Part shown: positions 20,313-20,749 of the stretch, piece by piece
How positions within the stretch are numbered: position 1 is the first letter of the stretch
How the letters are laid out: every line of letters begins with the position of its first letter
Assembly: GCF_964194155.1 (NCBI RefSeq)
Contig: NC_135909.1
Coordinates: forward strand, 11,284,001-11,348,000
Origin: Cetorhinus maximus
Lineage: Eukaryota
DNA length: 64,000 nt
Direction: 5' to 3'
Translations under genes and position numbers: made by a program
The notes under the pieces: model-generated
What the model was told of the DNA's origin: nothing
Databases searched by the model: none
What the model saw: only the letters and a program-made list of their open reading frames with translations

Positions 20313-20493
20313 ATCTTACACACACTTACACCACGAATGAAGAATTCCTCCCGCACTCACCCTTCCCCAAACTTCTGGGGAATGCAGTCGGCCGACTTCT
20401 GAATGGTCAAGGTGTTCGGAATCTCATTGGGTGGCTTTTGTAACCAATCAGAGAGCAGCTTATTTCACCAACCTAAAAACATCAAAAAGAAAA

Positions 20494-20678
20494 ACAAAAC
20501 AAAAGACCGCGGATGCTGGAAATCTAGCAAAAAATAAAAATACCTGGATAAACTCAGCAGCTCTGACAGCATCTGCGGAGGGGAATACAGAGCGATCTGA
20601 TGAAGAGTCATACGGACTCGAAACGTCAACTGTATTCCCCGCCGCAGATGCTGTCAGACCTGCTGAGTTTTTCCCAAG
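20494..20678. mobile_element. Fold-back Penelope terminal-repeat mini-element with central hammerhead, 13-bp TSD
   Basis: Inverted arms 20551-20590 / 20630-20670; TSD atcaaaaagaaaa at 20481-20493 and 20679-20691. Confidence 0.8.
20594..20632 (+). ncRNA. Minimal type I hammerhead ribozyme motif with intact core
   Basis: CTGATGA-A-GAGTC-ATACG-GACTC-GAAA-CGTC; palindromic ACGT stem III, predicted GUC cleavage triplet. Confidence 0.75.
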
Positions 20679-20749
20679 ATCAAAAAGAAAATGGACCGTA
20701 GGTTGAGCCAAACTGGCAGAGCTGAAACAGGTTTACAAATTGAACATTA

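What the first reader, a model, noticed from the sequence alone, without database searches (positions are those of the whole stretch)
20481..20691. Fold-back element with an intact hammerhead core at the tip of a ~40-bp hairpin
Seen: a 185-bp insertion between 13-bp TSDs, made of two inverted terminal-repeat arms (20551-20590 / 20630-20670) enclosing CTGATGA-A-GAGTC-ATACG-GACTC-GAAA-CGTC. The core is perfect, stem II is a 5-bp perfect hairpin and the cleavage triplet is GUC. Stem III is the loopless palindrome ACGT, so it can form only between two molecules. Inference: the long arms could replace the weak local stem I, giving a dimer-dependent self-cleaving RNA; the arms are also a dsRNA/siRNA source.
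Basis: partly seen in the sequence, partly recalled or inferred. Interest (0 to 1): 0.7.

Follow-up and report, generated by a model that had tools for sequence, protein, structure and literature searches.

The report
Stub insertion of shark Penelope retrotransposon
This hairpin is a real, stub-sized insertion of the end of a very common Penelope-type jumping gene in a shark-like genome, carrying that element's known minimal self-cutting RNA motif as a likely inert passenger; it is mostly ordinary, but the ends of such stubs suggest that the element copies its RNA onto both strands of the cut site.

Summary
In detail: a 185-bp insert (20494-20678), a 13-bp target duplication confirmed by empty paralogous sites, 45-bp arms and a canonical minimal hammerhead core. 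It is the end (pLTR) of a Neptune-type Penelope-like retroelement, copied twice head to head. The same end closes an RT plus GIY-YIG copy in this window. A 30-mer of the arm occurs 25,549 times in the genome, and short fold-backs at least 1,040 times. Minimal, palindromic, dimer-type hammerheads and inverted pLTRs with a one-sided tail are published. Two points remain of interest: 49 of 49 fold-backs pair one long with one shorter end, and 27 of 99 copies start at the front of helix I. This suggests priming from both target strands on uncut RNA. The scan has noted this before (142 findings in at least 15 genomes).

The parts
20481..20493 (.). Left target-site duplication (13 bp exact; up to 16 bp with one mismatch)
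   Evidence: single copy at empty paralogous sites
20494..20590 (-). Inverted copy of the element end, from the long 3' end (with the ~35-nt tail) back to +33 relative to hammerhead C3; 20546-20590 forms the left arm
20591..20595 (.). Junction filler replacing most of the native helix I 5' strand (the G at 20594 may be element-derived; one duplicate, L019, reads as native from -3)
20596..20629 (+). Minimal type I hammerhead: core 20597-20603, stem II 20605-20619, GAAA 20620-20623, palindromic helix III 20623-20626, C17 20627; helix I reduced to one pair
   Evidence: motif type from PMC4209133
20630..20674 (+). Right arm: sense element end, stopping about 20 nt before the usual short end
20679..20691 (.). 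Right target-site duplication
55880..58075 (-). 5'-truncated, decayed coding copy of the same family (RT with YIDD motif, GIY-YIG region, 3' UTR, hammerhead, short end)
   Evidence: Pfam on related copies

Best explanation
The feature is a two-armed stub insertion of the 3' end (pLTR) of a Neptune-type Penelope-like retroelement, later multiplied at least 21-fold with the histone-cluster segment it landed in, and its hammerhead is likely inert at this site. Shown: identity with the element end, the target duplication, empty sites, the family's abundance, and one long plus one shorter end per two-armed insert. Inferred: the element's endonuclease makes a 13-15-nt staggered cut, and both nicked strands prime reverse transcription, one at each of the two internal start sites about 35 nt apart. 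Both cDNAs stop early and are joined head to head with a few filler or overlapping bases, so the hairpin is a by-product of integration. The sense arm stops at the front of helix I, likely the 5' end of an uncut transcript from an upstream pLTR, which is why a whole core sits at the tip.
For: The same end closes an RT plus GIY-YIG copy at 58075-55880. Related copies score RVT_1 31.8 bits (cut-off 29.6) and GIY-YIG 21.5 and 20.9 bits (cut-off 22.6, just under). Partial tandems run from the pLTR straight into the ORF start in L118, L126 and L134. Arm 30-mer: 25,549 exact matches, control 0. Head-to-head pairs at 55-85 bp spacing: 1,040; the opposite order: 1. One long plus one shorter end in 49 of 49 fold-backs, against 31 long, 27 short and 1 other among 59 solo ends. 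TSDs of 13-15 bp in 25 of 49, and of 8 bp or more in 40 of 49. Junctions differ between inserts in both arms (5' ends from -11 to +44). Arms of one insert are more alike than arms of different inserts (4.9 versus 8.3 mismatches of 42; 36 of 49 usable; permutation p 1e-4). 27 of 99 ends lie at -9..+1 and 1 in the next 11 nt; 9 of 18 solo ends there have a TSD close by. Literature: inverted truncated copy with a one-sided 30-40-bp tail (PMC8557442, PMC3846280); two internal start sites, extension of both strands, hammerhead not needed for insertion (PMC11167929).
Against: Priming from both strands is inferred from ends only. PMC3846280 explains head-to-head junctions by self-priming on an antisense template, and PMC11167929 saw no strand difference in start-site use. 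Both arms copy the same template stretch, which needs strand displacement or two RNAs. Arm similarity could also come from later conversion within a hairpin. The 5' pile-up could be a transcription start or a stop at a 3' splice site (the upstream sequence is a pyrimidine tract ending in AG); these were not told apart. The 99-end sample comes from the first 11.5 Mb of one contig. The right arm here is about 20 nt shorter than the usual short end. Catalytic inertness is predicted by secondary-structure energies only.
Confidence: 0.85

Rival explanations
1. The arms act as an extended helix I and make a dimer-dependent self-cleaving RNA.
For: Core, stem II and the GUC triplet are canonical here and in 7 of 21 duplicates. 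Stem II is predicted at probability 0.94. A strand-swapped dimer keeps all arm pairs. One duplicate (L019) has three helix I pairs.
Against: Helix I has one pair, then a 5x1 loop before the arm. The core is predicted to be sequestered (+6.9 kcal/mol to free it). The double hammerhead costs +15.5 versus +3.7 and +4.5 kcal/mol. 11 of 21 duplicates carry A15.1G and 3 a broken stem II; these are probably few events spread by duplication. Only 7 of 49 fold-backs keep a canonical core, and 2 of 49 keep core, stem II and helix I. The closest duplicates found lie about 6 kb apart.
Confidence: 0.05
2. The fold-back is a non-autonomous mobile unit (MITE-like or retrozyme-like) that moves as a whole.
For: At least 21 near-identical copies, and at least 1,040 similar fold-backs.
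Against: All 21 copies share the same flanks and target site, so they are segmental duplicates. The 49 independent fold-backs have differing junctions. The arms are not terminal, and there is no tandem array as required for non-LTR retrozymes (bioRxiv 10.64898/2026.07.22.740005, part 1 read).
Confidence: 0.04
3. Same element, but the hairpin arises by self-priming on an antisense template rather than by priming from both target strands.
For: Proposed in PMC3846280 (Discussion passage) for head-to-head junctions. Arms of one insert are alike. Some tips overlap by several bases (gap down to -20).
Against: Tips often hold fillers (up to 19 nt) and unequal truncations rather than a clean palindrome centre. 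Sense-RNA priming on both strands was shown in vitro (PMC11167929). The strict long plus short pairing matches two start sites.
Confidence: 0.2

Closest known systems
Minimal hammerheads (min-HHR) in pLTRs of metazoan Penelope-like elements, including fish Neptune, Poseidon and Xena (Cervera and De la Pena 2014, PMC4209133; parts 1-2 of 4 read)
   Same: Type I; loopless palindromic helix III; extra base between A9 and stem II; G10.1-C11.1; short 4-bp helix I in native copies; mostly dispersed single motifs.
   Different: At this locus helix I is cut down to one pair by the inversion junction, and stem II is 5 bp.
Complex EN+ PLE insertions with an inverted 5'-truncated pLTR and one-sided 30-40-bp tail (Adineta Pen2a_Av, PMC3846280, passages; Craig et al. 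2021, PMC8557442, passages and section 15)
   Same: Head-to-head arrangement, tail on one end, TSD, partial tandems.
   Different: Here both arms are under 100 nt with no coding part; TSDs peak at 13-15 bp, against 8-10 bp in the Adineta cases read.
Poseidon element PAc of Anolis (Frangieh et al. 2024, PMC11167929, whole text read; supplements not read)
   Same: Two fixed 3' ends matching internal start sites; hammerhead near the ORF start; inserts run through the uncut site.
   Different: This family has a Neptune-type Cys linker. The strict long plus short pairing and the pile-up at helix I are not reported in the main text.
Non-LTR retrozymes (bioRxiv 10.64898/2026.07.22.740005, part 1 of 5 and passages)
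   Same: Type I hammerhead of PLE origin in a non-coding repeat.
   Different: No tandem units here; inverted rather than direct arrangement.

Membership tests
EN+ Penelope-like element | Single ORF with RT followed by a C-terminal GIY-YIG endonuclease | tested here: met
   RVT_1 above cut-off in L133; GIY-YIG at E 3e-4 to 5e-4, just under cut-off, downstream in L131 and L132; same order in window 58075-56381
EN+ Penelope-like element | pLTR formed by partial tandem: the end sequence continues into the ORF start | tested here: met
   L118, L126, L134 among 19 long copies examined
EN+ Penelope-like element | Optional 30-40-bp tail on one end; inverted 5'-truncated copy; TSD | tested here: met
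   Ends about 35 nt apart; 49 of 49 fold-backs have the tail on one side; empty sites
Neptune clade | CX2-5CxxC linker between RT and EN; DKG motif | tested here: met
   Both motifs read in L131 and L133; definition from PMC8557442
Neptune clade | RT phylogeny with Neptune rather than Nematis or Poseidon | not tested
   No tree built; Nematis also has the linker
Minimal type I hammerhead | CUGANGA / GAAA core, stem II, NUH triplet, palindromic helix III | tested here: met
   Rfam has no hit
Minimal type I hammerhead | Contiguous helix I of 4-5 bp next to the core | tested here: not met
   One pair then a mismatch at this locus; 4 bp in native copies
Minimal type I hammerhead | Covariation in stems | tested here: inconclusive
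   Within 48 long copies the stems mostly do not vary; one compensatory stem II pair in the related family at 53765; no formal test run
Minimal type I hammerhead | Self-cleavage as a dimer | not testable with these tools
   Needs in vitro assay
Non-LTR retrozyme | At least two tandem units, each with a hammerhead | tested here: not met
   Single unit; duplicates share flanks and lie 6 kb or more apart
MITE / mobile fold-back | Terminal inverted repeats and a fixed internal sequence at many target sites | tested here: not met
   Arms are not terminal; junctions differ among 49 inserts

The most novel reading that the evidence does not exclude
These stubs record an undescribed integration rule: a dimeric Penelope particle primes both strands of a 13-15-nt staggered cut, always one strand at the long and one at the short start site, on uncut RNA whose 5' end lies at the first base of hammerhead helix I. 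Bolder add-on (about 0.1): the palindromic hammerhead serves to pair two template RNAs rather than to cut. That would fit A6 being U in 18 of 48 long copies and the triplet being GUU in 41 of 48.
Probability: 0.4. Interest if true: 0.55.

Novelty: new member of a known kind. Interest (0 to 1): 0.22.

Why it matters
As a single locus it matters little: it is one of at least a thousand such stubs, and both the layout and the ribozyme type are in print. The family-wide counts bear on an open question, namely how Penelope-like elements form inverted ends and one-sided tails and what their hammerheads are for. The 49-of-49 pairing and the pile-up at helix I give sharp predictions for the existing in vitro system. 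Long hairpins made at every such landing could also feed silencing of the family, which is untested.

Tried and rejected
Rfam scan: no hammerhead family hit at E up to 10. RNA evidence: no RNA holder listed for 20400-20800, so no evidence either way. Contigs of related organisms laid on the element: no GT..AG joint ending at the helix I edge among the joints shown (15 per call shown; 44 and 355 more not shown). Loose ends at the -1 position had low agreement (19 and 6 contigs, 0.45 and 0.54), so no shared upstream exon was seen, but contigs cannot show starts. Pile-up at the cut site (+31): 8 of 98 fold-back ends lie at +31..+33, against 4 and 2 in the flanking 3-nt bins, and 2 of 99 lie at +24..+34 in the unbiased sample; inconclusive. 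Pfam on the broken window pieces gave only a weak RVT_1 hit (E 0.03). Hammerhead on the minus strand: no core. Look-up of earlier findings by sequence: nothing. Lunse et al. 2017 is not held; only its title and a review passage were seen (PMC6765202), so core variants tested there may bear on the A6 point. Literature searches found no paper on this shark family, the pairing rule or the helix I pile-up; subscription papers, Repbase and supplements were not seen. Rows left out: 1 of 100 listed hits was not fetched; 1 of 50 listed fold-backs was dropped as a duplicate; 13 of 49 were too short for the arm comparison.

Full report
Setting. The window lies in a 4.0-Gb vertebrate genome (G000:C32:11284001-11348000), inside a segmentally repeated histone and tRNA cluster. 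That the animal is a shark or ray is my recall of this repeat type and the wording of earlier scan notes; no call named it.

Observation. All stated parts are present: a 185-bp insert at 20494-20678, a 13-bp direct repeat on both sides, 45-bp arms at 93%, and a canonical core with C17 at 20627. The duplication is real, because 9 of 9 empty paralogous sites examined carry the 13-mer once. The arms are not terminal: 52 bp of further antisense element sequence precede the left arm.

Identity. The right half matches the end of a decayed coding element in the same window (58075-55880, minus strand), which reads RT, then GIY-YIG, a 3' UTR, the hammerhead and the same end. In 19 long copies fetched from other contigs, Pfam gave RVT_1 above its cut-off and GIY-YIG just below it. 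The DKG motif and a Cys linker of Neptune type are present, and three copies show the end running on into the ORF start, the partial tandem that defines a pLTR. An exact 30-mer of the arm occurs 25,549 times and an exact 30-mer of the core 2,209 times, with controls at 0. The 21 closest copies share flanks and target site, so they are duplicates of one insertion.

Fold-backs are routine. Exact head-to-head arm pairs spaced 55-85 bp number 1,040; the opposite order gives 1. Of 50 listed, 49 were analysed. Their junctions differ, 40 have a TSD of 8 bp or more (25 of 13-15 bp), 7 keep a canonical core on either arm, and 2 keep core, stem II and helix I. All 49 have one long end and one shorter end, whereas solo ends split 31 long, 27 short, 1 other. 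Arms of one insert are more alike than arms of different inserts. The layout with a one-sided tail is published (PMC8557442, PMC3846280), and the two ends match the two internal start sites of the Anolis element, which extends both strands in vitro (PMC11167929). I infer priming from both target strands; self-priming on an antisense template (PMC3846280) remains a rival.

Why the core sits whole at the tip. In 99 copies picked only by a downstream 30-mer (first 11.5 Mb of C1), 27 begin at -9..+1 relative to C3, 21 of them at -4..-2, and only 1 begins in the next 11 nt upstream (27 of 53 across ten equal bins, p 7e-14); 43 run beyond -80. Nine of 18 solo ends in the peak have a TSD close by, with 0-4 intervening bases in most. 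These copies pass through the cut site, so their template was uncut. The position fits an initiator-like start (consensus recalled). It also fits a 3' splice site, and in D. virilis the intron ends at helix I (PMC4209133; promoter and intron in PMC2377424, Discussion and passages). Contigs could not decide. The focal sense arm begins at -1, or at -3 with one substitution.

A loopless helix III forces helix I to form between copies, so the long intramolecular hairpin must strand-swap. The double hammerhead costs +15.5 kcal/mol relative to two folded monomers, against +3.7 and +4.5 for two native copies. The monomer is predicted to pair the core into an inactive helix. Among the 21 duplicates, 7 are intact, 11 carry A15.1G and 3 have a broken stem II; these are probably few events spread by duplication. 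Published minimal hammerheads cleave poorly even as dimers (PMC4209133), and the Anolis one needs protein and is dispensable for insertion (PMC11167929). Expression and small RNAs were not testable.

Verdict. A real feature and a new member of a known kind. The single locus is ordinary. The pairing rule and the helix I pile-up are the parts worth following. I did not find them in the papers searched, but this scan's earlier notes already report them in this and other genomes; those notes are not independent support. Supplements of the cited papers were not read and may bear on novelty.

Noticed in passing
48 long copies among L061-L090 and L150-L209: Core position A6 is U in 18 of 48 and the triplet is GUU in 41 of 48, so a large subfamily spread with a non-canonical core.
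   Followed up: partly
window 53765-53860 (+): Related element end with an A6C core and a compensatory pair in stem II; it also starts at the front of helix I.
   Followed up: no
window 19923-20315 (-): Histone H2A-like frame lacking its start codon; the insert lies about 180 bp upstream, beyond a CCAAT-like box (identity read from the translation).
   Followed up: no
window 50428-50528 (+): A duplicate of the left arm only, cut off by a rearrangement, followed by a decayed element end at 50731-50816.
   Followed up: no
window 21971-22291 (+); 21157-21230 and 17633-17705 (-): Histone H4-like frame and tRNA-Gly genes in a roughly 9-12-kb repeated segment.
   Followed up: no
L159: Two-armed insert whose inverted arm is only the 35-nt tail, the smallest case of the long plus short pattern.
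   Followed up: no
window 20857-21099 (-): Short frame that resembles a fragment of another Penelope-like ORF (resemblance recalled, not tested).
   Followed up: no
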